Source: a virus (lineage: Duplodnaviria; Caudoviricetes). From it: a DNA stretch of 64,000 bases. The stretch covers positions 64,001-128,000 of IMG/VR virus record IMGVR_UViG_3300027740_000003; one strand, given 5' to 3'. The notes under the pieces are model-generated. The model was not told the DNA's origin and did no database searches. It saw only the letters and a list, made by a program, of their open reading frames with translations. Each line of letters starts with the position of its first letter. The stretch's first letter is position 1. Below are positions 14,725 through 63,947 of this stretch, in pieces. The translations under genes were made by a program, and so were the position numbers.

Positions 14725-15260
14725 CATCCCATTGATCTTTTTCAGCCGGCAAGATCTATAGCCTATGGGAAAGACTAAGCTTCCAACTATTCAGTTGAAC
14801 TATATTGGTCATTGAATTCCTGAATAAATTCTTCTCTCTCTTCTCCTTCTAACCCCTCACATTCTTCTTCAAGAATCTTTTCATACAAAGGATGGGCTAA
14901 AGAAGAAATTTTCTCTTTAATCTCTTGCAAAGAATCTCCAACCCAAACAAAAGCCTGATCGTTCCCACCATGGGGCCAATCATCATCTCTTACATAAGCA
15001 TAAATTGCTTTATGTCCTTCTTCAAGAAGAGTTTTCAAATTGTCAAAACCACAAAGCCAAGATCCACATTGTATTGAGTAATATGGCTCTAGTGTTTTTT
15101 CAATCTTATTGAACGTACTACACTCGGCATCTTCATCATAATATGAGAAATCTTGTGAATCAATAATATAAGGAAGTTCCCTACATAGGCTTTTGCCGTC
15201 CTTAAACCAAGTGTCAATTCTAATTTCCATATTTCTTTCTTTTGACATTCACGGGTTTAG

Positions 15261-15333
15261 TAGCAGTGCTTGGCCTTGCACCAAGATCTCCTGGCCTTAA
15301 GACCAGTCGCTTTAACAAATAAGCTACACTGCT
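15261..15333 (-). tRNA. Degenerate tRNA-like gene, anticodon ambiguous (TAA or TTA)
   Basis: Acceptor AGCAGTG/CACTGCT, D stem GCTT/AAGC, arm CTGGT-CTTAAG-GCCAG (6-nt loop), T arm CTTGG-TGCAAGG-CCAAG. Confidence 0.5.
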
Positions 15334-31454: not shown

Positions 31455-33812
31455 TGCTCTTCACCTTACCTAATGAACTCTTTTTATTTCTCTAGAACCA
31501 GTTTATAACTCCATTGAAAATCAAGCTCCTCATTGTCCTCCCCAGGCCAATCAGGATCTCGATCCCACGCAACCATCACGGAAAGATTATTGTCCTCTAC
31601 AACAGCCACCCGGCCTTTTAAACAATAGTCCTTCCGATGCTGAACCCTATCGCCAACTTTAAAAGTTGTTGACTCTACAGATGAACCTAACATTATCACC
31701 TACTATCTGCCACTTGGCCATTTAGTCTTTTTTAACTGCCACAGCCCCACATTTTTTACAAATCCAATCCTTGTCAGAAGGATTGCCAACATCCGTGCAC
31801 CCTAGAGTCTCAATATAGTTCCCCTCTGAATCTATAACCTGATCCTCTTGTACACAACATGATACAATAAACAGCTTGTGCTCAGAACTGTTAGGACATA
31901 TTGTTTTCATTTTCACTCCGAATAATAACAGTCAAACCAAGGCCCGCTTCTCCTGGTCCGACGTTTTCCTTCTGCTTTTGTACACGTTCTCGAACTTGTC
32001 TCGGGATTCTTGCAATGACCTTGAGCCATTGCTAAAGTCTGGTTCCGAAACAAAATGTACGCTCTTCCACTGTTTTGGAATTTGCGCACAATTTTGTACG
32101 ACATTTTATTCCTCCCCTTCAAAAATGGCCCAGTTGTATCCTTCGGCTGGCATATACCAGATAAACAGGATCCCAAACATAAACACCAGTGCGGCTGGCG
32201 GCATCCACCACCACAAAGCCACAGCAACCATTCCCGCAATACTACTCAGAAGAATCGAATCCATATATCCCTTTCAAGATGGAGGATCATCAATTAACAT
32301 ATAATGATCTACATCACATGCCTCAGACCAAATACGCATTTCTAATTATGCTAAATGAGCTGAGTTTTTTTGTTAGCTACCTGGCGGGTTCTCAACCAAC
32401 ATGTAGTATTCTACATTTGGAACGATGAATCGAAGAGTCTTTTTCGGGCATGGCGGGCATGGAACCTCGATCTCATAAACGAAATAGAAACTATATTCGG
32501 AATCACCTAGATATGTTATTACAAGTCCAAAATAGATTTTCCCTCCAGAAGAAAATAGACACCTCTTCTCTGTTTCTCTATTCTTCTCTGTTTCTTCGGG
32601 AGGGTTATCTTCTACACTTTTCCATTGCATTTGTTTTATTCCTTCTTTACAAACTTCCATGAATCATTTCGTAAAATGAGCACATTCTACATCTTCATCT
32701 TCGTCTTCCCAAAAAGATATTTCACCAAGACTCCCCACGGAAAAATGATCCGCCTTCACTTTAACCAGATCATTCAGAGTATCTCCTTCCAACTTTACAA
32801 GAAATGTCTTCATATATCTTTTCTATTCTATTGTTTATATGCAAAAGGACACTTCTTGTGGCACCCTTCCCCACATTCACAATACCCTTCGGCAATGTCA
32901 ACACATTCCCAACCACTCTTCTCCGGAAATCCACACTGCCGGTGAGAACACATCCCGCTTTTCTCTCTTTCTCCACAAGCCATATTAGCCCTTCCTTGCC
33001 CCCTCACTGCCTCTCTGAGAGGCTTTTGCACCACCTAGGCCCCACTGGCCCAGCCAGACGAAAACCCCTCACAGCGGCTTCTGGAGCCGCTCCCGGAGCT
33101 GGTTCTCAAACAGCCGATGACATTTGGAAAGCCTGTTGTATTTGCCTATGTCTTTTCCGTGATATTCTTTGTATAGAGACATGTTCCCAAACTGGGAACA
33201 ATTTGTCTGATCAAGGTTGCTATTAGCATAGGTCTGGAAATGTGGACACTCCCGAGAACAATATTGCCCCCGGTCCCCACAGACAACTATGTCAACACTA
33301 TAGGTTAGTTTTATGTCTTCCATTTTAACTCATGATCTCGTCAATAAATGTACAGCTATAATAAGCATTGCTATACACCAAAATATAAACGCCACCGAGC
33401 CGCAATAATCATGCGAAAACAATGCTTGCCATTTGTATTGACGCTTCCTGTCGCCACTCTTTGCCAACTCCTCCGGACTTTCCAAAGGAACTACAGAAAT
33501 GTATCTTACCTTCTCTGGGTCAACAAGGTTGTTATTGGTATATGCGTCGGCAGCATCAAACGCCTCTTCCTCAGAGTCATATGGTCCTGCAACACTCTGA
33601 AAATCATCCGCCCCCGACCCGAAAAACACAATCACATGTTTAATGAATCCTGCCGATCCTCCTAAGGTTGGCTCTGCCATGTTCTTAACCTGTCCCGCCA
33701 TTTAACTGGCGCAAAAAAATTGGGGGCAACCGGTTTCCCTACGAAGCCCTCCACCACTTAACTAGATGCACCATTGCGCCTAGTAAAGTCTTTTTACCTA
33801 CATATAGGTTAG

Positions 33813-34149
33813 TGTAGGTGCCGGGAGTCGAACCCGGATCCGCGAACCAATGCAAGACACCATCATTCACAAGCTTAGGTTCATATCCTAGAACCAGGAT
33901 CCCACTCCCAGGGATTAGGTTTGCCCCTTATTGTCCTCGACCCGTTATATTGAGGCCCTTACGGGTTCAGTCCGTATGGTTTGCACCTTCCAAAATATCC
34001 AGACTTATCTCTTGGAAAATGTGACTTATGCCGCAGCAGCAGTCAGGTCTGCGTTATCGTTTGCAGTTGTTTACGACCCATTGATAAGTGGATAGGCGCC
34101 ACTTGCTTGCAGATGCCTCTTTCAGTCCCCGTCGAAACCAATCACCCAC
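33813..34149 (-). ncRNA. ssrA: tmRNA; tag peptide (A)ANDNADLTAAAA*
   Basis: Acceptor GTGGGTG/CACCTAC with G3-U70, 5' GGTTTCGACGGGG, T arm CCGGG-TTCGACT-CCCGG, resume codon GCA AAC GAT AAC... at 34064-34026 ending in TAA. Confidence 0.95.
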
Positions 34150-51431: not shown

Positions 51432-51716
51432 TTATTCTATCAGGTCTTTAATGATAGAGCAAGAAGGGCAGAGAATGGCCAAGAATTTTCTAAATGGCAT
51501 ATAGCCTGGGGAGATATAAAGGCAAGCTTTACCGAAGGTTAATTTTGCTGAGGTTGGGGAATTAATATCGCAGGTAGTTTTTCTATATTTACCATCTCCG
51601 ATATTAAGTTTAATGAGGACAGATTGACCAACAATGATGGGAGAATTACAGGAGGAGCATTTAAGTGGGAGAGAGTTCATTCTATGATATTTTTTATATT
51701 GTAGCAATCGGGGCAA
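51432..51716 (-). CDS. Split Zn-ribbon protein with IKDII tag
   Basis: CSSC...LCPSCSIIKDLIE*. Confidence 0.8.
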   Translation of the reverse strand: MPRLLQYKKYHRMNSLPLKCSSCNSPIIVGQSVLIKLNIGDGKYRKTTCDINSPTSAKLTFGKACLYISPGYMPFRKFLAILCPSCSIIKDLIE

Positions 51717-51967
51717 AGTAAGGGGAAGGCTCCAGATTTAGGGAGGTCAGATTCAATAAATATTTCGAACCAATAACCTTTCCATAGAATATAAGAATAC
51801 CACCAAGCTATACAGCTAGAAGATACAAATTTACAAGAGGAGCATTGGTACATTATTATATGTGTATTACAGGCAGAGCATTTATAATAAGATTGAGAAT
51901 CACAGGATTGAGCCTCAATGAAGATGAAGTGATGATCTTTCTTAGCATTATCTGGGAGGGGGATCAT
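51677..51967 (-). CDS. Cys-rich Zn-ribbon protein with IKDII tag
   Basis: CSAC, CSSC...LCPDCYNIKNIIE*. Confidence 0.8.
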   Translation of the reverse strand: MIPLPDNAKKDHHFIFIEAQSCDSQSYYKCSACNTHIIMYQCSSCKFVSSSCIAWWYSYILWKGYWFEIFIESDLPKSGAFPLLCPDCYNIKNIIE

Positions 51968-52015
51968 TGATTTGGTACCAAGGGAGAAAGCGTGGCAATA
52001 TATTAAAAATAATAA

Positions 52016-52231
52016 CTACGTTATTATATTTTTAATGTTAAAACAATCTTGACAGAGGAAGCTATTAAGAATAAAGTTTTTTGGATCAACTATTTCGTAG
52101 GGGCCGATGAATAATTTATTATTCATAAATTTAATTTTGACATAAGAAAATCTGAAAGAGAGGGTATCATGACAGAAGAAGGAATCATTATTCTTTATAG
52201 GGGAGAGGCAAGATGAGCAGAGATAATTCAT
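52016..52231 (-). CDS. Split Zn-ribbon protein with IKDII tag
   Basis: MNYLCSSC...LCQDCFNIKNIIT*. Confidence 0.8.
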   Translation of the reverse strand: MNYLCSSCLSPIKNNDSFFCHDTLSFRFSYVKIKFMNNKLFIGPYEIVDPKNFILNSFLCQDCFNIKNIIT

Positions 52232-52540
52232 TGAATGATATCTTTAATTATCAAGTTGGTTAAAATTTCATCTACGAAGTCTTTATAATCTGGGCAGAGG
52301 GCAATAATTAGTGGATGATATTTAGCCTGATATATTGCTAATTTTTGAAGTTCTTCTGATAGAAAAAGGGTCTTGTTTAACAGCTGCTAATTTTATTTCT
52401 TTTGAAGGATTGTGTATATATTGAATATTATATCCATCTTGTTTAACTGCTTTTAAACAATCAGATTCATTTTCCGGATCGAAGCCTAATGTTTTATTTA
52501 TTAATTGTTTTAATTGTTTTAATTGTTTAATATTATTCAT
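52228..52540 (-). pseudogene. Frameshifted 22-aa-repeat (DUF4116-like) protein with IKDII tag
   Basis: Frame 1 MNNIKQL...LGFDPENESDCL...QDPFSI; another frame continues SEELQKLAIYQAKYHPLIIALCPDYKDFVDEILTNLIIKDIIQ* (stop at 52228). Confidence 0.75.
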
Positions 52541-52942
52541 ATTATGATATCTCTAATCAAGCATTCGGAGCAGGAGAGCTGGGAAAGTTGATCGACAGTC
52601 TTCCAAGAGCAAGCTGGACAATAGTAATAGAAGCCATTAGGACTAAATTCTGAAGGATCATCGAAAACAAGGCACAAGACATTACAATTGGAGCATTTAT
52701 AAAGTGATATGTTTTGATATTCTTCAAACAGGAAGAAATCATGATCTTTGACAGCATTTTAAAGGTACAATAAGGCAGGCGTCGGGATATCCTTTTGTAG
52801 TACGGTCGTAAAAAAGGTTATTATTTTTATTTTTAATTTTTTGCCAACCACAAAATCTGGAATTTGGTGGTTTATATCTAAAGACGAAGAAGTAATTAGA
52901 AGATATAGGGGAGAGGCAAGAGGAGCAAGAGTAATTAATCAT
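52537..52942 (-). pseudogene. Fused/frameshifted pair of Zn-ribbon genes
   Basis: 52739-52942 starts MINYSCSSC but lacks the tag; an overlapping ATG-less frame reads NAVKDHDFFLFEE...YKCSNC...CPAC...LSCSECLIRDIII* (stop at 52537), similar to 51677-51967. Confidence 0.6.
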
Positions 52943-53169
52943 TGAATAATATCCTTAATTAGGTAGCAATCTGAGCAAAGGATGGTAGAGATTTCATATT
53001 TTTGGAAGGGGAGCAATATAAAAGAACCTGTATTTTGATAATAAAATTTTCCATTTTTAACACCTATTTTTTGCCAACCCTGGCAAAATTTATTACGGAT
53101 TAGGGAGTCATTTCTAAATATGTAGAAAATGTTAGGATTAATTTTTAAAAAGCAGGATGAGCAGATCAT
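52939..53169 (-). CDS. Split Zn-ribbon protein with IKDII tag
   Basis: MICSSC...LCSDCYLIKDIIQ*. Confidence 0.8.
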   Translation of the reverse strand: MICSSCFLKINPNIFYIFRNDSLIRNKFCQGWQKIGVKNGKFYYQNTGSFILLPFQKYEISTILCSDCYLIKDIIQ

Positions 53170-53537
53170 TGGATTATATCTTTAATCACCATTTCTGTTT
53201 TAGACAAGCATTTGAAATTGTTTAAACATTCTAACAGATTATATGTTAATCTGTATAATTCATTAAATTTAATTTCGTTTTGGACAAAAAAATGTTCATC
53301 ATGATGATAGTTTAAAAAGACAGAAATATTTTTATTAGAATGATAATAGAAAGTAATTCCAATTAAGCAATTTTCTGATTCGGAGAAGATAAATGGTTTG
53401 GAGAAGAAGGAGGAATCATTTTCAATGAAGTCATTTAGTGAGAGGGAGAATTCATAAGGTTCCAGGGCTAAATTTATCTGATGGATAATTTTTTGTATAC
53501 TAGAAGGTTTTGTTAAATTAGGTTTAAGATATTTCAT
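53166..53537 (-). CDS. Hypothetical protein with IKDII tag (non-Zn, non-repeat)
   Basis: Ends LSKTEMVIKDIIQ*. Confidence 0.75.
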   Translation of the reverse strand: MKYLKPNLTKPSSIQKIIHQINLALEPYEFSLSLNDFIENDSSFFSKPFIFSESENCLIGITFYYHSNKNISVFLNYHHDEHFFVQNEIKFNELYRLTYNLLECLNNFKCLSKTEMVIKDIIQ

Positions 53538-53728
53538 TGGATAATATCTTTAATCATGAGGCAATTAGGACATAGGAAGGTTCTATTTTCTAGAAGTTGT
53601 TTACAATGGGTGAATATTTTTGTCCAAGAAATATTAATTATCTCCTTTGAATAAACAGCAATAGAAACCCAATTATCGGCCAAATCAAGAGATATTTGAT
53701 CATGGCAAGAAGAGCAAGTTAAAATCAT
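53534..53728 (-). CDS. Split Zn-ribbon protein with IKDII tag; close paralog of 56400-56621
   Basis: MILTCSSC...LLENRTFLCPNCLMIKDIIQ*. Confidence 0.8.
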   Translation of the reverse strand: MILTCSSCHDQISLDLADNWVSIAVYSKEIINISWTKIFTHCKQLLENRTFLCPNCLMIKDIIQ

Positions 53729-53922
53729 TTAATTATATTTCTTATGACAAAGCATTCTGGGCACAAGAATTTAATATATGGTCGTGCAGAGTGGTTTTTA
53801 AAAGAAGCTGAATCGAAAAAGCTTTCTGTCATTTCAAAGAAACTAGAAGAGTAATGGTTATTACAAAAGAACCAGCTAGTATTTTTATTATTTTCTATTT
53901 TGTGGCAAGATGAGCAGATCAT
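53725..53922 (-). CDS. Split Zn-ribbon protein with IKDII tag
   Basis: MICSSC...LCPECFVIRNIIK*. Confidence 0.8.
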   Translation of the reverse strand: MICSSCHKIENNKNTSWFFCNNHYSSSFFEMTESFFDSASFKNHSARPYIKFLCPECFVIRNIIK

Positions 53923-54053
53923 TCTATTATGTCCTTAATTATGTAGCAATCTGGACAAAGAGCAACAACACTGTCAAAAATATCACTAGCTGCATGGAAT
54001 CTTTCATTGCCCAAATTGGATCTTTTGCATGAGTCGCATATTTCTTTTTTTAT
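53919..54053 (-). CDS. Unannotated 44-aa Zn-ribbon mini-protein with IKDII tag, ATA at the start position
   Basis: IKKEICDSCKRSNLGNERFHAASDIFDSVVALCPDCYIIKDIIE*; overlaps its neighbours by ATAA upstream and ATGA downstream. Confidence 0.6.
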   Translation of the reverse strand: MKKEICDSCKRSNLGNERFHAASDIFDSVVALCPDCYIIKDIIE

Positions 54054-54373
54054 TCTATTATATCTTTAATTATAAGATTGGTCATAATTTCATCTGCAAA
54101 GTCTTCATAATCCGGGCATAACATTATTACTTTAATATCATATTTAGATTGTTTTATTGCTAATTTTTGAAGTTCCTCTGAAGGGTTTTTAATATATCTA
54201 ATAGAATATGCATATTGTTTAACCGCTAATAATTGCATTTCTTCTGAGGGGTTCTTTATAAATTGAACAGACCATCCATTTTCTTTTACAGCTTTTAAAC
54301 ACTCTGATTCATTTTCCGGATCAAAACCCAAATTTTTAGCAATTAACTTATTTAATTGTTTTTTATTATTCAT
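54050..54373 (-). CDS. 22-aa helical-repeat (DUF4116-like) protein, 1 full repeat plus caps, IKDII tag
   Basis: LGFDPENESECLKAVK...KNPSEE...LCPDYEDFADEIMTNLIIKDIIE*. Confidence 0.8.
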   Translation of the reverse strand: MNNKKQLNKLIAKNLGFDPENESECLKAVKENGWSVQFIKNPSEEMQLLAVKQYAYSIRYIKNPSEELQKLAIKQSKYDIKVIMLCPDYEDFADEIMTNLIIKDIIE

Positions 54374-55689
54374 TCTATGATATCTTTAATAACGAGGTTG
54401 TCAAGGATTTGGGAGACAAAGTAATCAGGAAGGTTGCGCAAGTCAAGGGAGGAGATAAATTTAATATCGAATTTAGAATTATATATAGCCAATTGTTTAA
54501 TATCGGGTCCCGGGTTTTTTATAAATCTAATGCTTTTATAATTTATTTCTATGGCAATTTTCTGAATTTGTTTAGAAGGTTTGGAGATATATTTGATAAC
54601 ATCAGGATCTTGGGACACGGCTAATTTCTGAATTTGTTTAGAAGGTTTAGGAACACGTTTGATAAGATCAGAATCTTTGGATATAGCAATTTCCTGAACA
54701 AGTTCTGATGGGTTTTTAATATGAATTAAAGCATTTGGATTTGAATTAACGGCAATAATGTTTAAATCTTCTGTTTGGTCATTTAAATATTCTATAAACT
54801 CGCCGTCTTGTTTTAGCGCAAGTTTCCACAATTTTTTTGAAAGAGTTATATTTTCATTTGACAGTAAAGTTTCGATAGCGGCTGAATTTTCAGATTTCAC
54901 CACCATTTCTTTAATAATTTCGGAAGGATCATTAATATGATTAATAGCTTCTGGTTTAGATTTTACTGCGAGTTGTTTAAAACTTTCGGAAGGATTTTCT
55001 ATAAATTCAACAAGTTCTCCATTTTTAGAAAGAGCCAGGGTAATAATTTTATCAGAAGGATTTTTAATAAAAAAGATATTATATGGAAATTTTTTAACTG
55101 CCAGTTCTTGAATTTCCTTGGATGGATTTTTGATATATTGGAACATCTCTGGATTTAAAGAGATGGCATATTTTTGTAATTTTCTAGAAGGTTTTTTAAT
55201 AAATCTTATTGAATAAGGATCATTTTTAATTGCCAACATTTTTAATTTTTCAGATGGTTTTTTTATCTGTTGTATAGACAAGCCATCAGATGAAACCGCG
55301 ATAAGTTTTTGTTCTTCTGTTGGTTTTATAATATATGGCAATATATATAAAGGATCTATTTTCAGCATAGCATTGACAACATTTACTGATGGATTTTTAA
55401 TTACATGATAATTGTATGATTTTAAAATATTATTATTTATTGCATAAATTTGTGCTTTTTCTGCAAATCTATTCAATAGTGCATTCAGTTGTGTAGGTGT
55501 GTCTGAAAACGCTCTTGCTTCTTCGACGTGTTTTAAATATTCTATTTGTAATCTTATTGAAGGATTTTTGATATATTTTATATTATTTATATCGTCCTGC
55601 AAGTGTATATTGGTTAGATTATCTATCCACTGAATTGAATTTGGGTTATGTTTTAGAGCAATGGTTTGTAATTTTTCTAGAGGTTTCAT
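54370..55689 (-). CDS. 22-aa helical-repeat (DUF4116-like) protein, about 14 repeats, IKDII tag
   Basis: Repeats of type KNPSxExQxLAVxxxxxxIxYI; ends ILDNLVIKDIIE*. Confidence 0.85.
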   Translation of the reverse strand: MKPLEKLQTIALKHNPNSIQWIDNLTNIHLQDDINNIKYIKNPSIRLQIEYLKHVEEARAFSDTPTQLNALLNRFAEKAQIYAINNNILKSYNYHVIKNPSVNVVNAMLKIDPLYILPYIIKPTEEQKLIAVSSDGLSIQQIKKPSEKLKMLAIKNDPYSIRFIKKPSRKLQKYAISLNPEMFQYIKNPSKEIQELAVKKFPYNIFFIKNPSDKIITLALSKNGELVEFIENPSESFKQLAVKSKPEAINHINDPSEIIKEMVVKSENSAAIETLLSNENITLSKKLWKLALKQDGEFIEYLNDQTEDLNIIAVNSNPNALIHIKNPSELVQEIAISKDSDLIKRVPKPSKQIQKLAVSQDPDVIKYISKPSKQIQKIAIEINYKSIRFIKNPGPDIKQLAIYNSKFDIKFISSLDLRNLPDYFVSQILDNLVIKDIIE

Positions 55690-55760
55690 GAAATATGAGC
55701 AAGGAAACCCCCAGCCTTGTGCCAGAGGTTATTGACTGTATTATGTTTCTTATAGAAAAT

Positions 55761-55979
55761 TTACTCTATAATATCTTTAATAATGAAACAATCATGGCAC
55801 ATAATTGAGAAACTGTCTTCTCCGCCGCATTCTTGGATACAGGCTTGGATAGGGATATCACATTTAGAATATTGAGATAGTTTAGATTGTAGGGAAAGCA
55901 AAGAGGCCCAACCGTCCTGGGATTCATAGCGCCAAGACAATTCATTATTATATTCGGCATTACAGGACAAGCATTTCAT
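55761..55979 (-). CDS. Split Zn-ribbon protein with IKDII tag
   Basis: MKCLSC...MCHDCFIIKDIIE*. Confidence 0.8.
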   Translation of the reverse strand: MKCLSCNAEYNNELSWRYESQDGWASLLSLQSKLSQYSKCDIPIQACIQECGGEDSFSIMCHDCFIIKDIIE

Positions 55980-56167
55980 TCAACATCTTTTATATTATGG
56001 CAAGAAGGGCACATTAAAGGGATAGAATCAAGAATACGTGGAAGTGCGGTAGGGGAGACCCAAGGGATAAGAGGTTTAAGGGAAGATATTCTAATCCATT
56101 CAGATTTGAAAAAAGCAAACCATTTTTTATCCAGAGGCGATTCAGAGTTGCAGAATTTACATTTCAT
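55976..56167 (-). CDS. Split Zn-ribbon protein with variant tag
   Basis: MKCKFC...MCPSCHNIKDVE*. Confidence 0.75.
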   Translation of the reverse strand: MKCKFCNSESPLDKKWFAFFKSEWIRISSLKPLIPWVSPTALPRILDSIPLMCPSCHNIKDVE

Positions 56168-56403
56168 TCAATTATGTCTTTTAAATGCCAGCAATCTTGG
56201 CAAAGAATGGTAGAAAGTTGATATTTATTGAATAAATTTTTAGTATTTTTGTTATGAATATTAACATAATTAAAGCTGGTTTGATATATTTCATTATCAT
56301 TTAATTCAAAAAAGCAATATATTTTACCTCCAGGGGCTCCACAATCTGCATAAAAAGATTTAAGATTTTGGGCAAAACAGGAAGAGCAGATATAATTAAT
56401 CAT
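56164..56403 (-). CDS. Split Zn-ribbon protein with IKDII tag
   Basis: MINYICSSC...LCQDCWHLKDIIE*. Confidence 0.8.
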   Translation of the reverse strand: MINYICSSCFAQNLKSFYADCGAPGGKIYCFFELNDNEIYQTSFNYVNIHNKNTKNLFNKYQLSTILCQDCWHLKDIIE

Positions 56404-56621
56404 TGTATTATATCTTTAATTATTAAACATTTGGGACAAAGGATGGTTCTGTTTTCTAGCAAAGCTTTATAATTTTCAAATGTTAATGTATAAAGAATAT
56501 CGATTAATTGAACCTCTGTTTCGAAACGAGAAAGAGACACCCATCCTTCTGCCAATGACACCCATTCTTCTACCAATTCAGCAGATATCCTATCACGACA
56601 AGAAGAGCAAGTTAAAATCAT
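56400..56621 (-). CDS. Split Zn-ribbon protein with IKDII tag
   Basis: MILTCSSC...LLENRTILCPKCLIIKDIIQ*. Confidence 0.8.
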   Translation of the reverse strand: MILTCSSCRDRISAELVEEWVSLAEGWVSLSRFETEVQLIDILYTLTFENYKALLENRTILCPKCLIIKDIIQ

Positions 56622-57283
56622 TCAATAATATCTTTTATAATTAAATTGTTATATATTTCTTCAGCAAAATCTTTTGCAAAATCTTTATAGTCGGGACATA
56701 ATAATATTATGTTTATATCATATCCAGACTGTTCTATTGCAGCTTTTTGAACTTCCTTACAAGGATTTTTTATATATTCAATAGAAGGCGGATTTTGTTT
56801 AACTGCTTCTAATTGTAATTTTTCTGAAGGATTTTTTATATATTCAATAGAAAATGCATTTTGTTTAATAGCTTCTAATTGCACTTCCTTAGAAGGATTT
56901 TTTATATATTCAATAGAAAATGCATTTTGTTTAACTGCTTCTAATTTTACTTTCTTACAAGGATTTTTTATATATCGAATAGAATGCCCAAATTCTTTTA
57001 CAGCTTCTAATTGAACCTCTTCGGAAGGATCTTTTATATATTGAATAGAATTTCCGCTTTGTTTAACTGCTTCTAATTTTACTTCCTTAGAAGGTTTTTT
57101 TATATGCATAATTGAATGCCCATCTTGTTTAACAGCTTCTAATTGAACTTCTTTAGAAGGGTTATTTATATGTCGAATATTAAATCCTTTTTGTTTAACC
57201 GTTTTTAAACAATCAGATTCATTTTTTGGATCAAATCCCAAATGTTTATCAATTAATTTATTTAATTCTTTTTCATAGTTCAT
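56618..57283 (-). CDS. 22-aa helical-repeat (DUF4116-like) protein, 6 full repeats plus caps, IKDII tag
   Basis: LGFDPKNESDCLK...(NPSKEVQLEAVKQ)n...LCPDYKDFAKDFAEEIYNNLIIKDIIE*. Confidence 0.85.
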   Translation of the reverse strand: MNYEKELNKLIDKHLGFDPKNESDCLKTVKQKGFNIRHINNPSKEVQLEAVKQDGHSIMHIKKPSKEVKLEAVKQSGNSIQYIKDPSEEVQLEAVKEFGHSIRYIKNPCKKVKLEAVKQNAFSIEYIKNPSKEVQLEAIKQNAFSIEYIKNPSEKLQLEAVKQNPPSIEYIKNPCKEVQKAAIEQSGYDINIILLCPDYKDFAKDFAEEIYNNLIIKDIIE

Positions 57284-57492
57284 TGAATGATATCCTTAAT
57301 CATTTTACAAGTTTCGCACATAAAACTATTACTATTTGTTTTAAATAGTATTGTACTTATAGTTTCTCCCAAATTTGTATCATAGTGTTTTAATTTAATA
57401 TGATATTCCTGTTCGGCAGGAGAAATTATTATATACCACTCTTTATTATAGAAAACAAATTTTTTACAAGAGGAACAGATCATTTCCACCAC
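57280..57492 (-). CDS. Split Zn-ribbon protein with IKDII tag
   Basis: MVEMICSSC...MCETCKMIKDIIQ*. Confidence 0.8.
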   Translation of the reverse strand: MVEMICSSCKKFVFYNKEWYIIISPAEQEYHIKLKHYDTNLGETISTILFKTNSNSFMCETCKMIKDIIQ

Positions 57493-57743
57493 ATATAATC
57501 ACAATCAGCCCAACGAATTTCATAATGATATTTAGACCAGAATAAACCTTTAAAAGGTTTTGACACTTGAAACCCTACATCTTCCAACTTAAGAATTACT
57601 TTTTTACTCAATGTTGGAACATTAATATAACTCATTGATTGATATGCCGCCTTTCTGCATTTTTTCGAAATAATTCTGTATTCTTCCATTTCTTCTTTAT
57701 TTAAACGCCTCATTAGTTCTAAACACTCTTTTTGTTCAGGCAT
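57480..57743 (-). CDS. Hypothetical protein (no tag)
   Basis: 87-aa ORF linking the radical SAM to the tagged array by overlaps. Confidence 0.6.
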   Translation of the reverse strand: MPEQKECLELMRRLNKEEMEEYRIISKKCRKAAYQSMSYINVPTLSKKVILKLEDVGFQVSKPFKGLFWSKYHYEIRWADCDYMWWK

Positions 57744-58566
57744 TATATAATTCCTTTGTTGAAAATGAACTAGGATATACTTTCATTGTTTCTAAATCTA
57801 GGTATTTGCTTAGAATTTCGGGTTCATACATAGATACATTAAATCTTCCATCTTGCAAATATGGATAGAAGTTGGCTCCAAAAGCGATATCAGCTGGAGA
57901 ACCGACAATAGATTGTTTTAGATATTCCCAATCTATTTGTGCTTCTTTACATCTCCCCTGGGCAGAAAGAGGCAGAAGTACAAAGTATTTAATTCTATCA
58001 TGATATTCTTTGTATATAGAAGAAAATGTATCTATAGATGATTTGTCAGATATGATACAATGTAGGTTAGTGAAGATATTTTCTGCCAAGAAGGCTTCTG
58101 TGGCAGATCTCCAGAATTGTTCTAGATGAGGATGGGTTGATACAGCAACTCCTCCACAAAGCTCTTTGGTAGCCTTGAGAAGGGTTTCTGAGATATGCAT
58201 TCCGTTGGTTGTGTAGTTAGGGGTGATTCCTAGGCTCAGGCTGGCTTCTAAGACCTTTATGAAGTCAGGATGGGAAGTAGGCTCGCCTCCTCCAAAAGCG
58301 ATTTGAAAAGGCTTCTGGTTTTGAGAAAGAGGGGAGAAGAATTTGAGGAATTTATCCACAATATTTCTATCATGGGATTTAGGAACAGAAGACTGATAGC
58401 AGTAGGAGCATTTCCCCATACAATGCGAAGTAATTTTCACATCATAGAACTCTGGATATTCCAACTCATTAATCTCTTCATTTGGATTTAAGGCAAAGCG
58501 GAGGGTAGTTCCGTCTGACAGGTGAAAAGCTTTGTAATTAGATTCTGGGAATATTCTAATTTTCAT
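57736..58566 (-). CDS. Radical SAM enzyme
   Basis: CMGKCSYC, AFGGGEP, YTTNG. Confidence 0.9.
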   Translation of the reverse strand: MKIRIFPESNYKAFHLSDGTTLRFALNPNEEINELEYPEFYDVKITSHCMGKCSYCYQSSVPKSHDRNIVDKFLKFFSPLSQNQKPFQIAFGGGEPTSHPDFIKVLEASLSLGITPNYTTNGMHISETLLKATKELCGGVAVSTHPHLEQFWRSATEAFLAENIFTNLHCIISDKSSIDTFSSIYKEYHDRIKYFVLLPLSAQGRCKEAQIDWEYLKQSIVGSPADIAFGANFYPYLQDGRFNVSMYEPEILSKYLDLETMKVYPSSFSTKELYNA

Positions 58567-58607
58567 TCTAATATATCCTTATTTTTGATGGAGGATAGTT
58601 GTATACA

Positions 58608-59063
58608 TTAACATCTGTGTTCTACAGCTTCGGTAGAGTACAGGAATTTAATTGCCAGTTTGGCTAATTTTTTGTATTTTGGATCTTTTACAGTTATTTC
58701 CAATTCCGTATCACCTTCATAATATTCTTTAATTTCTTCCAACCAGCCCGGCGCTTCTATTTTGCCAGACTCAACATCTTCCAAAAGTTTAGAAATTTTA
58801 TCCTCGTCGGGGTCTCCATTGGGAGAAAGGTAAGTGTCATCCATACCATTATAAATGGCATCTACAGCCATATCCCAAACCAAATCTGTATTGCTAACAA
58901 TTTTTACATTAAAAATTTCATCGCAAGTATTTCCCGTTCCCATCAAAGTAAGCATTTCGTTAATTAGGGCTTTAAATGGTTTGATGGAACCCTCTGATTT
59001 AGTGTATATAGTAGTAGAAGAGTTTGTGATTAAACTTGTTATGGAATGTAGTTTGATTTTCAT
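58608..59063 (-). CDS. 'SITSxITNSST' family protein, copy 4
   Basis: MKIKLHSITSLITNSSTTIYT...KYKKLAKLAIKFLYST. Confidence 0.8.
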   Translation of the reverse strand: MKIKLHSITSLITNSSTTIYTKSEGSIKPFKALINEMLTLMGTGNTCDEIFNVKIVSNTDLVWDMAVDAIYNGMDDTYLSPNGDPDEDKISKLLEDVESGKIEAPGWLEEIKEYYEGDTELEITVKDPKYKKLAKLAIKFLYSTEAVEHRC

Positions 59064-59075
59064 TGTATTTTCTTT

Positions 59076-59501
59076 TTAGCTGTAGGTGGCTTCTTGATAG
59101 GTTGAATATAGAAACTCTTGCATTTGTTTTGCAAGTTTTTTATATTTTTCATCTTTTGGAATGATATGAAGATAGGTAGACGGAGCCTCATCTGCCGTAC
59201 CTTTTTCTATTTTTTTAAACCAGGTGGGCTTATCAATTTCTCCAGCTAACACAGAATCATAAAGCTTCCTTACATCTTCTTCAGTTAATTTTTTTGGAGC
59301 GGATTTGTAATACTCTTCTGGATATTCCGACAAAACTACCGTTTTAAACACATCGTCAAATTTGTATGGTAGGTTAAATGTTTCAAATATTTCATTTACC
59401 AAATTTCTTGCAGATTCTTCAGAATTTTCTGAATAAGTAAATATGGTAGTTGAAGAATTGGTTATTATTGAGGTTATTGAGTGTAGTTTCATATTATCCA
59501 T
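59076..59501 (-). CDS. 'SITSxITNSST' family protein, copy 3
   Basis: MKLHSITSIITNSSTTIFT...KYKKLAKQMQEFLYST. Confidence 0.8.
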   Translation of the reverse strand: MDNMKLHSITSIITNSSTTIFTYSENSEESARNLVNEIFETFNLPYKFDDVFKTVVLSEYPEEYYKSAPKKLTEEDVRKLYDSVLAGEIDKPTWFKKIEKGTADEAPSTYLHIIPKDEKYKKLAKQMQEFLYSTYQEATYS

Positions 59502-59946
59502 CCCTGAATGCTTCGTGAGAGGTTGAGTACAAGAACTTTTTAATCAGATTTGCCATATTAGCATATTCTGGCTTCTTTGGAACAAGATAAAGTGTTGTTG
59601 GATACGAATATCCATTCTCAGAATTTTCTGATTTGGCTTCAGCTTCTTCGAACCAAGTAGGTTTAGGCAAAATTCCCGCCATAACATCTTCATACAAAGA
59701 TCCTATATCAGAATTTTCATCAATTCCTTCCACCGTATTATTCTCCAAGTATTCATAATACAAATGTGAATCTCTGAAAAGAAGAACTGTAGTGAAGAAA
59801 TCATCAAAAGTTTTCCCTTCTACTCCAAGTGTTTTCAAAATTTCATTTATCATATTCTTAGCAGCTTCTCCAGAGGCATCAGAATAAGTATATATAACCG
59901 TTGAGCTATTTGTTATTATTGAGGTTATTGAATGTAGTTTTATCAT
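59494..59946 (-). CDS. 'SITSxITNSST' family protein, copy 2
   Basis: MIKLHSITSIITNSSTVIYT...EYANMANLIKKFLYST. Confidence 0.8.
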   Translation of the reverse strand: MIKLHSITSIITNSSTVIYTYSDASGEAAKNMINEILKTLGVEGKTFDDFFTTVLLFRDSHLYYEYLENNTVEGIDENSDIGSLYEDVMAGILPKPTWFEEAEAKSENSENGYSYPTTLYLVPKKPEYANMANLIKKFLYSTSHEAFRDG

Positions 59947-60380
59947 CAGTTTTCTCCTTCCTCATAAGAGGCAGAATATAGAAACAATTCTATTGTTTCG
60001 GCCAGCTTATCATATTTTGGGTCTTTTGTAGAAATGAACAAATTAGTTGATCCGGAGTCGTTTTGTTCGACATAATTAAACCATGTAGGTTTTGGCGTTT
60101 TTCCTGTTTTTACATCGTAGTATAATTTATCAAAATTAGTATTTTCATCAACTCCTTCTATAGGATGATAGCCCGCATAATCAGAATATCTCCAAGAGGA
60201 ACTGCTTAATAGAACCACTTGAAAAACATCATCGAATTTTAAAGGAATATTAAACGAGACAAACAGTTCTTCCACCATTTTTCTAAAAGCCTCCTCACAG
60301 TTTTCTGATTTGGTATAAATGGTAGTTGAGCTGTTGGTAATTAATGATGTTATCGAATGCACTGGTATTTCAATTAACAT
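59946..60380 (-). CDS. 'SITSxITNSST' family protein, copy 1
   Basis: PVHSITSLITNSSTTIYT...KYDKLAETIELFLYSA. Confidence 0.8.
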   Translation of the reverse strand: MLIEIPVHSITSLITNSSTTIYTKSENCEEAFRKMVEELFVSFNIPLKFDDVFQVVLLSSSSWRYSDYAGYHPIEGVDENTNFDKLYYDVKTGKTPKPTWFNYVEQNDSGSTNLFISTKDPKYDKLAETIELFLYSASYEEGEN

Positions 60381-60400
60381 GCGTGGCCTCCAATCTGTCC

Positions 60401-60464
60401 AACGTAATCATCCGGCCCAGGGATGTCAAGTAGAGTTGACACACCGCAGGAAAGTGAGTATGTT
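60401..60464. promoter_or_regulatory. Back-to-back divergent promoters
   Basis: Minus: TTGACA(60429-60424)-N17-TACGTT. Plus: TTGACA(60436-60441)-N17-TATGTT. Located exactly at the strand switch. Confidence 0.75.
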
Positions 60465-60496
60465 CATGGACATGGAGAACATCCAGGAGCAATAAA

Positions 60497-60745
60497 ATGA
60501 ATAAAGTATATGTTGTAATAAAAGATGAAGTTGTAGAGAAGGTTGAATTTGAAAGAAGTGTAGCTCTAGAGCTGGCAAAACAGTTAGCGGGCGTAGAGGC
60601 AGGCATTTCTTTAGCGGACGTCTCAGTATGGGAGGCAGAAGCGGGCGGAAAGCCAACCATGATCTATAGTGTGTCATGGGAGGCAACCGGACCGTTGGAA
60701 CCCCTGATATTCGTTGGAAGCCCAAGCATATCTCCTCAATCATAA
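60497..60745 (+). CDS. Hypothetical protein, first gene of the rightward operon
   Basis: AGGAG SD, ATG at 60497. Confidence 0.65.
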   Translation: MNKVYVVIKDEVVEKVEFERSVALELAKQLAGVEAGISLADVSVWEAEAGGKPTMIYSVSWEATGPLEPLIFVGSPSISPQS

Positions 60746-60753
60746 AGAATAAA

Positions 60754-61089
60754 ATGAAACATATTTTTAATTTTTTAATTTGGTTTATGCAAAACAGCCC
60801 AGATACAAGTGAATTTATTAAGAAAAAACGATTAGTACAAAAATCTATAATAAAACTAATACGAACAGACGGTTCTCTTATTGAAGATATTGAAAATTTA
60901 GAGTTGCAATTAATAGCGGTTAAACAAAACATATATTCTATTCAATATATAAAAGATCCTTCCGAAGAAGCGCAATTAGAAGCAGTTAAAAATTATCCGC
61001 CCATATTAGATTATATAGAAGATTTTATAAATGGTAAAATTTGTGAAAAAATAAAAGACATGTTGGTTATAAAGGATTTAATTCAATAA
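60754..61089 (+). CDS. Short 22-aa-repeat protein with IKDII tag
   Basis: LQLIAVKQNIYSIQYIKDPSEEAQLEAVKN; ends MLVIKDLIQ*; likely start MKHIF at 60754. Confidence 0.75.
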   Translation: MKHIFNFLIWFMQNSPDTSEFIKKKRLVQKSIIKLIRTDGSLIEDIENLELQLIAVKQNIYSIQYIKDPSEEAQLEAVKNYPPILDYIEDFINGKICEKIKDMLVIKDLIQ

Positions 61090-61150
61090 AGAACTTCAGT
61101 TATTAACAAAGAGGCATGATCAAAATCAGGATTAGTAATGGGTCTAATTC

Positions 61151-61834
61151 TTGCTGTGTTATGGGGCCATTGCTATAAAGCGGTTGACAGAAGGCCTGGC
61201 GAAGGTTAGGTTTGAGGGCATGATGGATTTGGAAAATAATACAGGAAGTCGCTTGTTTTTGACAAGCGATCTTCATTTTGACCATACGAACATAATTAAA
61301 TATTGCGACAGGCCTTTTCCAACTGTTAAAGACATGAATGGCGCACTAATAAACAATTGGAACAGAGTGGTTGGCTCAAGTGATATCGTCTGGGTTCTCG
61401 GAGATTTTTCTTTATCTAAAGATACGATATTTATTTCTAGAACTTTGGAAAATCTTAATGGACAAAAGAATCTTATTATTGGAAACCATGATAGTAAAGT
61501 GTGCACTAATTCTCAACACTGGAATTCTGTTCATGAACTACATAACATCTGTGTAGGCAAACAAACGTTAGTGATGTGTCATTATGCTATGAAGGTATGG
61601 TATCGAAGTCATCATGGGTCGTGGCTAACGTTTGGTCATTCTCACGGTAGCTTGCCAGAAGATAATTCGTTATCTTTCGATATTGGTGTTGATGTTTGGA
61701 ATTATACCCCTGTGTCATTTGAGCAGATAAAAAGAAAAATAGAAGATAAAAAGAATGCTATTTTAGTTGGAGAAAAAGGAAATGTAAATATTAGAAACAT
61801 TAATCAGAATAATAATAAGAAGTATTGGATATGA
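61151..61834 (+). CDS. Calcineurin-like metallophosphoesterase
   Basis: SDLHFDH, LGD, GNHD, CHY, GHSH motifs. Confidence 0.88.
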   Translation: MLCYGAIAIKRLTEGLAKVRFEGMMDLENNTGSRLFLTSDLHFDHTNIIKYCDRPFPTVKDMNGALINNWNRVVGSSDIVWVLGDFSLSKDTIFISRTLENLNGQKNLIIGNHDSKVCTNSQHWNSVHELHNICVGKQTLVMCHYAMKVWYRSHHGSWLTFGHSHGSLPEDNSLSFDIGVDVWNYTPVSFEQIKRKIEDKKNAILVGEKGNVNIRNINQNNNKKYWI

Positions 61835-62041
61835 CTAAAGGTATATGTTGTTCGTCTTGTGGTAAAATTTCAAATGATTATCATGGGATGGGCAAGAACC
61901 AACATCTGGGACAAATCAATAATTTATTCACTTGATATGGAATATTATCGAAATATTCCTGAACCATTTGAAGATTATGGATATCGTGAATGTGATTTCT
62001 TTTGTCCAGATTGTATTATTATTAGAGACATAATAAAATAA
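61831..62041 (+). pseudogene. Frameshifted split Zn-ribbon gene with IKDII tag
   Basis: ATG at 61831 (ATGA overlap) gives MTKGICCSSCGKISNDYH...stop; the adjacent frame continues GWARTNIW...FFCPDCIIIRDIIK*. Confidence 0.65.
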
Positions 62042-63155: not shown

Positions 63156-63947
63156 ATGTCTAAATCAAAAGAAAAACAACTAAAAAAATTAATTGTGGAG
63201 AAATTGGGTTTTGATCCAGAAGATGAATCTAATTATTTAGAAGCATGTAAAAAACATGGATTTCGTATTAGGTTTATAAAGAACCCTTCTAAAGAAGTAC
63301 AATTAGAAGCAGTTAAACAAAATGGAAATTCTATTCAATATATAAATAACCCTTCTAAAGAAATAAAACTAGCAGCTGTTAAAGAAAATGCATATTCTAT
63401 TCAATATATAAAGAACCCTTCTAAAGAAGTTCAATTAGAAGCTGTTAAAGAAAATGGAAATTCTATTCAATATATAAAGAACCCTTCTAAAGAAATAAAA
63501 TTAGAAGCAGTTAAACAAAACGGAGGATCTATATGTTATATAAAAAATCCTACTAAAGAAATTAAATTAGCATCAGTTAAACAACATGGAAATAATATTA
63601 GATATATAGAATGTCCTTCAGAAGAACTTCAGATAGAAGCAGTTAAACAAAACGGATTTTATATTGAACATATAAATTGTCCTTCAGAAAAAATACAGAC
63701 GGAAGCTGTTAAACAAAATGCATTTTCTATTGAATATATAAAAAATCCTTCAGAAGAAGTACAATTAGCAGCTGTTAAACAAGATCCATCTTCTATTCGA
63801 TTGATAAAGAACCCTTCAGAAGAAATTCAAAAGGCTGCAATAGAAGCTTCTGGATATGATGTAAAAATAATAATATTATGTTCTGATCGAGGAAAATTTG
63901 CAGAAGAAATATATAATAATTTAATTATCAAGGATATTATTGAATGA
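63156..63947 (+). CDS. 22-aa helical-repeat (DUF4116-like) protein, 8 full repeats plus caps, IKDII tag
   Basis: LGFDPEDESNYLEACK...(KNPSKEVQLEAVKQNGNSIQYI)n...FAEEIYNNLIIKDIIE*. Confidence 0.85.
   Translation: MSKSKEKQLKKLIVEKLGFDPEDESNYLEACKKHGFRIRFIKNPSKEVQLEAVKQNGNSIQYINNPSKEIKLAAVKENAYSIQYIKNPSKEVQLEAVKENGNSIQYIKNPSKEIKLEAVKQNGGSICYIKNPTKEIKLASVKQHGNNIRYIECPSEELQIEAVKQNGFYIEHINCPSEKIQTEAVKQNAFSIEYIKNPSEEVQLAAVKQDPSSIRLIKNPSEEIQKAAIEASGYDVKIIILCSDRGKFAEEIYNNLIIKDIIE

What the first reader, a model, noticed from the sequence alone, without database searches (positions are those of the whole stretch)
51432..62041. Split zinc-ribbon mini-proteins presenting hypervariable inserts on a fixed Zn-knuckle plus tag scaffold
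Seen: about 14 proteins of 44-96 aa have an N-terminal CxxC (usually CSSC within the first ~10 aa) and a C-terminal [LM/F]-C-x-x-C. In 13 of them the last Cys is followed by exactly two residues and then the tag (e.g. CPDCYIIKDIIE, CETCKMIKDIIQ). The sequence between the CxxC pairs ranges from 23 aa (53919) to 59 aa (51432) and is mostly unalignable, although near-twins exist (53534/56400; 52739/52939 share FCxGWQKI). Inference: the two CxxC pairs close one Zn site that clamps the termini and displays a variable domain next to the tag, like a library of target-binding modules (e.g. anti-defence proteins or substrate adaptors).
Basis: partly seen in the sequence, partly recalled or inferred. 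Interest (0 to 1): 0.8.

Follow-up and report, generated by a model that had tools for sequence, protein, structure and literature searches.

The report
Zinc-clamped mini-proteins with shared tail
A 435-kb soil phage carries a tandem array of about 14 tiny proteins that keep four cysteines and a shared 13-residue tail fixed while their middles differ, which looks like an undescribed family of metal-clamped mini-domains whose function has not been tested.

Summary
Window 51432-62041 holds 14 small genes: 12 intact, one without a canonical start, and one with a 1-nt frameshift. All have an N-terminal CxxC and a C-terminal CxxC-x-x-I-K-D-I-I-E.

The four Cys are invariant in 28 aligned members from three related phages. 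More arrays occur in 18 metagenome contigs and 2 viral contigs.

The C-terminal knuckle is not a separate part. It is a Cys variant of a 13-residue terminal module, L-[ST]-x-D-E-h-h-IKDIIE, that ends about 120 proteins of this genome. Cys in that tail co-occurs with an upstream CxxC (16/17 and 18/18, against 12/83 for tails without Cys). This supports one shared metal site, which is inferred and not shown.

The middles fall into at least 22 groups. Profile comparison of middles alone detects only 3 of 231 group pairs. Yet each group is conserved between phages (middle dN/dS about 0.4), and the genome has no reverse transcriptase. This is old paralog divergence with gene birth and death, not hypermutation.

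No Pfam, PHROG or PDB family fits. Function is unknown. The "binder library" reading remains untested.

Other first-stage notes of this scan flagged the same tail elsewhere in this genome. On other DNA the scan only found different shared tails.

The parts
51432..51680 (-). Mini-protein, 82 aa, CSSC at residue 8, 59-aa middle, LCPSC-SI-IKDLIE
   Evidence: AlphaFold model at pLDDT 72.5 is beta-rich with a terminal helix at 72-81. The middle weakly resembles SH3/Tudor/Veg barrels.
51677..51967 (-). 96-aa fusion: sister-family (H...CxxC) N-terminus joined to a mini-protein body (CSSC...LCPDC-YN-IKNIIE)
   Evidence: The body matches L005:9786-9965 and the N-terminus matches the AVKDH family.
52016..52231 (-). 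Mini-protein, 71 aa
52537..52758 (-). Remnant of the sister family (KDHDF...CSNC...LSCSEC-LIRDIII) with no start codon. It overlaps a frame that begins MISSC.
   Evidence: Three-frame reading. Intact relatives are in L005 and L008.
52739..52942 (-). Mini-protein with an intact N-terminal CSSC and FCGWQKI, but a decayed C-terminal knuckle and tail
   Evidence: HMM match covers positions 1-50 only.
52939..53169 (-). Mini-protein, 76 aa (GWQ subfamily)
   Evidence: Ortholog L005:6994-7224 is 51% identical with dN/dS 0.23.
53534..53728 (-). Mini-protein, 64 aa, twin of 56400
   Evidence: Its orthologs L005:7221 and L008:8399 are the only pair with middle dN/dS above 1.
53725..53922 (-). Mini-protein, 65 aa
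53919..54041 (-). Shortest member (23-aa middle). ATA stands where ATG is expected, so it may be decayed.
55761..55979 (-). Mini-protein, 72 aa
55976..56167 (-). Mini-protein, 63 aa, with a shortened tail (IKDVE). It is the most conserved subfamily.
   Evidence: L005/L008 orthologs are 97% identical with dN/dS 0.09, and their tail is also degenerate.
56164..56403 (-). Mini-protein, 79 aa
56400..56621 (-). Mini-protein, 73 aa, twin of 53534
   Evidence: The AlphaFold model is poor (pLDDT 59).
57280..57483 (-). Mini-protein, 67 aa, first of the array after the radical SAM operon
61825..62041 (+). Mini-protein split by one extra G (CATGGGATGG). It follows a phosphoesterase gene.
   Evidence: Intact orthologs are L005:559-753 and L008:557-751. 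Phosphoesterase is phrog_547.
57736..58566 (-). Context: radical SAM enzyme (276 aa, core domain only) upstream of the array. The synteny is conserved in close relatives.
54050..55689 (-). Context: two DUF4116-repeat genes with the same tail, interspersed in the array
   Evidence: DUF4116 genes also sit beside mini-protein arrays in L005, L008, L010, L011 and L018.

Best explanation
These genes are a tandemly amplified, phage-specific family of small four-cysteine metal-binding proteins, most likely binding zinc.

The N-terminal CxxC forms a knuckle. The C-terminal CxxC occupies the N-cap positions (-12 and -9) of a 12-13-residue amphipathic terminal helix. The same helix ends about 120 proteins of this 435-kb phage. 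One metal ion would tie that helix to the N-terminus and close the 38-68-residue middle into a small domain. This arrangement is inferred, not shown.

The middles are subfamily-specific domains. They diverged long ago and are now kept by purifying selection. The array turns over by duplication, fusion, frameshift and decay.

The most likely role, as inference only, is a set of accessory proteins that each bind a different target. They would share one terminal handle that is read by a common, unidentified partner.
For: Shown:
- 14 members lie in the window and more elsewhere in the genome.
- The four Cys are invariant in 28 sequences from three phages.
- Arrays of the same architecture, CxxC(GK)...(P)xGW...CxxC-xx-IKDIIE, occur in 18 metagenome contigs and 2 viral contigs.
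- The tail consensus L-[STC]-x-D-[EC]-h-h-I-K-D-I-I-E is found in 123 ORFs with mixed codons.
- The tail core is terminal 109 times and internal 4 times.
- Tail Cys co-occur with an upstream CxxC: 16/17 and 18/18, against 12/83 without tail Cys.
- The AlphaFold model of 51432 (pLDDT 72.5) has a helix starting right after Cys71.
- Only sub-threshold Pfam matches appear, and all are to zinc ribbons or treble clefs.
- Orthologs are conserved, with middle dN/dS 0.38 and 0.43 and ends 0.07-0.22.
- There are at least 22 middle groups, with 3 of 231 pairs detectable and 0 of 231 in reversed controls.
- Decayed and fused copies are present.
- The sister H...CxxC...C(-11) arrays occur in this phage and in a 458.7-kb phage.
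Against: - No coordinates were available, so the Cys-Cys geometry was not measured.
- The second AlphaFold model (56400) is poor (pLDDT 59).
- No Zn-ribbon family reaches its cut-off. The ClpX zinc-domain model does not match.
- Fold matches of the middle are weak (Z at most 5.1, TM at most 0.6).
- The metal could be iron (rubredoxin-like).
- The best-conserved subfamily (55976) has a degenerate tail, so the tail is not needed by every member.
- No partner, target or expression data exist. No RNA run holds the region.
- pI ranges from 4.2 to 9.5, which says nothing specific.
Confidence: 0.55

Rival explanations
1. The mini-proteins are precursor peptides (RiPP-like) of the adjacent radical SAM enzyme. 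The conserved Cys and tail would act as recognition or crosslink sites, and the variable middle as the core.
For: A radical SAM gene lies directly upstream. The order paralogs - radical SAM - 85-87-aa gene - mini-proteins is conserved in L005, L006, L007 and L008. The peptides are Cys-rich and small.
Against: The enzyme is 276 aa with only the core domain. No SPASM or twitch domain and no specific maturase family was found. The same tail ends proteins of 100-440 aa such as DUF4116 repeats. On the plus strand, and in L024, a mini-protein follows a phosphoesterase gene instead. Arrays in L010, L011 and L019 show no radical SAM gene within the contig. The middles look like folded domains under purifying selection.
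Confidence: 0.07
2. The conserved ends are a DNA-level feature. They would be junction sequences kept for translational coupling (ATGA overlaps, an SD-like AAGGA) or for recombination between cassettes, with the amino-acid motif as a by-product.
For: 70 of 123 tail genes end in ATGA overlapping the next start. AAG is used for the tail Lys in about 50% of cases, against 26% genome-wide. Fusions and deletions at junctions exist.
Against: All tail codons vary synonymously. Synonymous sites in the ends are saturated between orthologs while dN stays low. AAG use is not linked to ATGA coupling (p = 0.44). Junction DNA repeats are only 60-86% identical. The tail also ends genes followed by TAA and intergenic DNA.
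Confidence: 0.03
3. The family is an ordinary, fast-drifting set of paralogs with a single conserved function, for example small nucleic-acid-binding regulators or Fe(Cys)4 electron carriers for the phage's radical SAM enzymes. Under this reading the divergence of the middles has no functional meaning.
For: A weak shared core (aromatic/(G)W motif, hydrophobic pattern before the last knuckle) runs through members from distant phages. dN/dS is below 1. CPxC knuckles also fit rubredoxins. At least three radical SAM genes lie in the window.
Against: Ten to 15 intact, very different copies are kept side by side in each of three related phages, and each copy is conserved with its ortholog. Charge varies from -6 to +7. 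No rubredoxin or regulator family matches at cut-off.
Confidence: 0.25

Closest known systems
Treble-clef / zinc-ribbon mini-domains (for example the ClpX N-terminal C4 zinc-binding domain, Pfam PF06689; archaeal small zinc-finger mu-proteins such as the HVO_2753 type)
   Same: Both have two CxxC knuckles. In the AlphaFold model the second knuckle sits at the N-terminus of a helix. Both are small. Sub-threshold Pfam matches go only to such families. My recollection that the ClpX domain ends in a similar Cys-helix motif is a lead from memory.
   Different: No family reaches its cut-off. PF06689 does not match any member. The spacer is 23-68 aa and holds its own small domain. The helix is a tail shared with about 120 otherwise unrelated proteins.
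PhnA/YjdM-type proteins (zinc ribbon plus small SH3-like barrel) and Veg / Tudor-like barrels
   Same: The model of 51432 shows a small beta-barrel flanked by Cys knuckles. Weak matches go to Veg, a phage ProQ-C-like domain, Tudor, Sm and PhnA-like entries. Two members give weak Zn_Ribbon_YjdM hits.
   Different: Scores are in the range of common arrangements (Z at most 5.1). In the mini-proteins the knuckles sit on both sides of the barrel, not in a separate N-terminal ribbon. Other members may not share this fold.
Multigene families of large viruses with a variable body and a conserved terminal docking motif (for example poxvirus ankyrin proteins with a C-terminal PRANC/F-box-like motif), and acidic C-terminal docking tails of T4 and T7 replication proteins. 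These comparisons rest on my own knowledge.
   Same: Many paralogs with different bodies share one short C-terminal element that sits strictly at the chain end (109 terminal against 4 internal). The tail is acidic and hydrophobic.
   Different: There is no sequence relation. The host is bacterial. The tail is 13 residues, and in these subfamilies it is metal-tethered. No reader is known. Earlier notes of this scan on other shared tails were later priced low for the single-reader reading.
Diversity-generating retroelement targets and other display scaffolds
   Same: Constant framework with variable segment.
   Different: The genome has no reverse transcriptase. The variation lies between old paralogs, not between alleles. 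Orthologs are under purifying selection.

Membership tests
Zinc-ribbon / treble-clef C4 metal-binding domains (structural class) | Four metal ligands in two CxxC-type knuckles, conserved across the family | tested here: met
   The four Cys are invariant in 28 sequences. They are also present in members from distant contigs.
Zinc-ribbon / treble-clef C4 metal-binding domains (structural class) | The two knuckles come together in space; in treble clefs the second lies at a helix N-terminus | tested here: inconclusive
   DSSP of the model shows short bridges at residues 7 and 14, a strand at 67-70 and a helix from residue 72. No coordinates were available. The second model is poor. Co-occurrence of tail Cys with an upstream CxxC gives indirect support.
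Zinc-ribbon / treble-clef C4 metal-binding domains (structural class) | Bound Zn (or Fe) at 1:1 | not testable with these tools
   Needs ICP-MS or a PAR assay on purified protein.
Any curated Zn-ribbon family in Pfam, PHROGs or PDB | Profile match at or above the family cut-off | tested here: not met
   Pfam best E-values are 0.002-0.1, all below gathering scores. PHROGs give none. The PDB profile search gives none.
ClpX N-terminal zinc-binding domain (PF06689) | Match to the family HMM | tested here: not met
   Six-frame search of the genome at E up to 10 gave only an unrelated 13-residue match at 320.5 kb.
RiPP precursor with radical SAM maturase | Maturase with a SPASM/twitch or peptide-recognition domain; a short precursor with a leader or follower used only by precursors | tested here: not met
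   The enzyme has only the radical SAM core in 276 aa. The tail also ends 100-440-aa proteins.
Diversity-generating retroelement target | Reverse transcriptase and template repeat in the genome | tested here: not met
   No RVT_1 match in the 435-kb genome.

The most novel reading that the evidence does not exclude
The 13-residue tail is an address tag read by one machine of the phage or its host, for packaging and ejection, timed proteolysis or another sorting step. About a fifth of the phage's genes would use it.

The Cys-bearing subfamilies (C4 mini-proteins here, H-CxxC-C arrays here and in a 458.7-kb phage) would use a metal ion to hold that tag in a fixed pose on tiny, diversified binding domains. 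Under this reading the array is a natural library of addressable effector modules.
Probability: 0.2. Interest if true: 0.85.

Novelty: new variant of a known kind. Interest (0 to 1): 0.55.

Why it matters
Huge phages carry hundreds of small genes of unknown role. This array has an unusually clear design rule: a probable metal clamp built into the N-cap of a terminal helix that about 120 proteins share.

If the clamp and a common reader of the tail are confirmed, the family would give three things:
- a handle for finding what huge phages do with their accessory proteins;
- a compact natural scaffold (60-80 aa) that tolerates very different inserts;

If not, it is still a new family of small Cys4 proteins. 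It is well defined by more than 60 sequences and absent from the curated libraries searched.

Tried and rejected
- Megablast of the region against 50,697 phage records gave no match.
- A word-indexed protein search with one member found only itself. With the 28-sequence profile it found 6 proteins.
- The DUF4116 neighbour found no relatives in viral contigs.
- The family HMM did not match the 458.7-kb tag-bearing phage or two other records.
- Foldseek against the PDB gave nothing at E up to 0.001. VIA-align, AFDB and Atlas gave only weak SH3-like barrels.
- The language-model look-alike search gave scores of at most 0.84, which are leads only.
- The recalled resemblance to the ClpX zinc domain was rejected by the HMM.
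- Shine-Dalgarno dual coding by the tail was rejected.
- Long identical junction repeats that could drive gene conversion were not found.
- Stop-codon reassignment as a cause of the ORF-poor 24-51 kb region was not supported.
- A phage-encoded reader of C-terminal peptides was sought. ClpP is present, but there is no ClpX-type AAA_2 and no S41 tail-specific protease. The degron idea therefore has no specific support.
- The literature search found no paper on this tail or family.
- The promoter scan was uninformative in AT-rich DNA.
- Complex prediction was not used, because no specific partner could be named.
Full report
CONTEXT

The window is bases 64001-128000 of a single 435,004-bp virus record that CheckV rates complete. 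The only sequencing runs that hold it come from one soil metagenome study.

The window carries a tmRNA, nine tRNAs, an SNF2 helicase and three radical SAM genes. No phage record shares the DNA of the region. The helicase is at most about 30% identical to known phage helicases. GC drops from about 48% to about 30% at 51 kb, where the array begins.

THE OBSERVATION

I found 12 uninterrupted members on the minus strand between 51432 and 57483 (one of these, 53919, has ATA where ATG is expected), and one on the plus strand that is split by a single extra G. Two decayed relatives, 52739 and 52537/52557, are also present.

- The first CxxC, usually CSSC, lies within the first 8 residues in 10 of the 12.
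- The last CxxC is followed by exactly two residues and then [IL][KR][DN]II-x-stop.
- The spacer is 23-59 aa.
- Most genes overlap the next one by ATGA.

Chance is not an issue. Only 2 of 885 untagged ORFs of similar length in the genome have CxxC near both ends.

THE TAIL IS BIGGER THAN REPORTED AND IS SHARED GENOME-WIDE

A scan of all frames finds 123 ORFs ending in the tail. The extended consensus is L-[STC]-x-D-[EC]-[LM]-[MI]-I-K-D-I-I-E.

- Every position uses mixed synonymous codons, close to the genome's usage.
- Between orthologs the synonymous sites of the ends are saturated while dN is 0.06-0.22. Selection therefore acts on the peptide.
- The core I[KR][DN]II is terminal 109 times and internal 4 times.
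- The pattern [ST]-x-x-E followed by an amphipathic stretch reads as a capped helix.
- In the mini-proteins, LCPDC-xx-IKDIIE aligns residue for residue with LTEDE-LM-IKDIIE. The two Cys replace the cap residues at -12 and -9.

EVIDENCE THAT THE TWO CYS PAIRS ACT TOGETHER

1. The four Cys are the only invariant columns in an alignment of 28 members from this phage and two relatives.

2. Co-occurrence among the 123 tailed ORFs:

| Tail type | With upstream CxxC | Fisher p vs no tail Cys |
|---|---|---|
| Cys at -12 and -9 | 16 of 17 | 3e-10 |
| Single Cys at -11 | 18 of 18 (almost always with an H-x-F motif too) | 2e-12 |
| No Cys in the tail | 12 of 83 | - |

3. The 458.7-kb phage IMGVR_UViG_3300028920_000022 has a tandem array of about 20 genes of the H...CxxC...C(-11) type. 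Different ligand sets always include the N-terminus of the tail helix.

4. The AlphaFold model of 51432 (pLDDT 72.5) has short bridges at residues 7 and 14 around the first pair, two beta hairpins, a strand at 67-70 and a helix from residue 72 to the end. This puts Cys71 and Cys74 at the helix start, as in treble-clef fingers.

I could not obtain coordinates, so the geometry remains inferred. The second model (56400) is poor.

THE MIDDLES

Forty intact members from the window, L005 and L008 fall into at least 22 groups at 35% identity of the middle.

Profile-profile comparison of middles alone gives probability of 80 or more for 3 of 231 group pairs, and for none of 231 with reversed controls. 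"Mostly unalignable" is therefore correct.

A faint common core does exist. An aromatic or (G)W motif lies 10-25 residues after the first knuckle. In several groups an LSxxE-h-x-[ST]-h-L stretch precedes the last knuckle. Both are also seen in arrays from unrelated metagenomes, where the first knuckle is CxxCGK. Middles are aromatic-rich (16.5% against 9.3% genome-wide), and net charge ranges from -6 to +7.

NOT HYPERVARIABLE

A profile search of 1.84 billion representative proteins found seven relatives outside the genome. Their contigs are syntenic:
- L005, 13.3 kb;
- L008, 16.3 kb of a 19.9-kb contig;
- L006 and L007.

The shared gene order is paralogs with a SITS motif, radical SAM, an 85-87-aa gene, then mini-proteins interspersed with DUF4116 genes.

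| Comparison | Identity | Middle dN/dS | Ends dN/dS |
|---|---|---|---|
| Window vs L005 orthologs | 51-74% | 0.38 pooled (dS near saturation) | 0.07-0.13 |
| L005 vs L008 (closer pair) | - | 0.43 pooled over 633 codons (range 0.08-1.86) | 0.22 |

Only the 53534-type pair exceeds 1, and that estimate rests on 46 codons. The genome has no reverse transcriptase.

Gene content and order differ between the three phages. The window holds a fusion (51677), a copy without its tail (52739), a copy without start and first Cys (52557/52537), and a frameshifted copy (61825), all. This is birth-and-death evolution of old paralogs.

WHAT IT IS NOT

- No Pfam, PHROG, NCBIfam or PDB family matches at cut-off. 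The weak Pfam hits all go to zinc ribbons and treble clefs.
- My recollection that the ClpX zinc domain ends similarly was tested and not met.
- The radical SAM neighbour has only the core domain. More distant arrays show no such gene nearby. The RiPP reading is therefore weak.
- The DNA-level reading is contradicted by the codon data, by AAG use being unlinked to coupling, and by junction repeats of only 60-86% identity.

FOLD OF THE MIDDLE

For 51432 the searches give only weak matches to small SH3-like barrels: Veg, Tudor, Sm, a phage ProQ-C-like domain and a TraI translocation-signal domain. Scores are Z at most 5.1 and TM at most 0.60. This suggests a small barrel closed by the clamp in this member, and nothing more.

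FUNCTION

Nothing in the data names a target or a reader of the tail. The phage encodes a true ClpP homolog (180 bits) next to a DksA-like gene. It has no ClpX-type ATPase and no tail-specific protease.

The 55976 subfamily is the most conserved of all, yet it has a degenerate tail in all three phages. The tail is therefore dispensable for at least one member.

I commit to the following reading. These are metal-clamped mini-domains with subfamily-specific surfaces, made as accessory proteins. Most of them carry a common terminal handle.
- Structural part: about 0.55-0.65.
- Shared-reader part: about 0.2-0.3.

COMPARISON AND NOVELTY

Small Cys4 fingers and multigene families with conserved terminal motifs are both known. 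New here is the combination:
- a finger whose second knuckle is written into the cap of a tail shared by a fifth of a huge phage's genes;
- inserts of 23-68 residues;
- sister families that use other ligand sets.

I found no paper on it.

Other first-stage notes of this scan flagged the tail in other windows of this genome. On other DNA the scan saw only different shared tails, and later checks priced their single-reader readings low.

Noticed in passing
window 24000-51000: This 27-kb stretch has 42-52% GC, against about 30% in the array. Only about 4,100 aa lie in ORFs of 150 aa or more. No single stop-codon reassignment restores long frames on one strand. It holds the tmRNA (33810-34149) and several tRNAs.
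   Followed up: partly
window 15260-15333: ARAGORN calls a tRNA with an unreadable two-base anticodon, while Rfam scores it as a tRNA.
   Followed up: no
L009 (G000:C1:409193-412744): A true ClpP homolog (205 aa, 180 bits to PF00574) lies directly downstream of a DksA/TraR-type C4 zinc-finger gene and next to three Cys-rich small genes. The genome has no ClpX-type ATPase.
   Followed up: partly
window 52228-52540: A DUF4116-repeat gene is split by an out-of-frame deletion inside a repeat, so the tail is in another frame. Together with 61825 and 52557, this makes three broken genes within 10 kb. They are either real decay or assembly errors.
   Followed up: partly
window 57480-60380; L005:3036-5376; L008:2623-5621: The block of three or four paralogs with an N-terminal HSITSxITNSST motif, a radical SAM gene and an 85-87-aa gene is conserved in all close relatives. 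It evolves slowly (dN/dS 0.03-0.13 for the paralogs).
   Followed up: partly
L012, L013, L016, L023, L027, L028, L029: Unrelated phage contigs (for example one of 94 kb) carry a single gene with a membrane segment, DxDGDG loops and a C-terminal CEHVW...ECLKCGK-IKDIIE. The Cys-knuckle plus tail therefore also exists outside huge phages and outside arrays.
   Followed up: no
L003 (IMGVR_UViG_3300028920_000022, 458.7 kb): A tandem array of about 20 small genes (about 35 tailed frames in 9.6 kb) has G-H-x-[LF]...CxxCG...[ST]-C-x-[DE]-h-h-h-[KR]-[DE]-I-I-E. The tail is more degenerate than in this genome.
   Followed up: partly
whole genome G000: The Lys codon of the tail is AAG in about half of the genes, against 26% genome-wide. 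This is not linked to ATGA coupling with the next gene. The bias is unexplained.
   Followed up: yes
window 54050-54373, 56618-57283, 63156-63947 and L010/L011: DUF4116 proteins end in a conserved cap, h-h-LCPD[YW]-x-[DE]-F-...-N-h-h-IKDIIE. The LCPD stretch echoes the mini-proteins' LCPDC but lies about 20 residues upstream of the tail. In L010 and L011 the cap ends CKDIIE.
   Followed up: no
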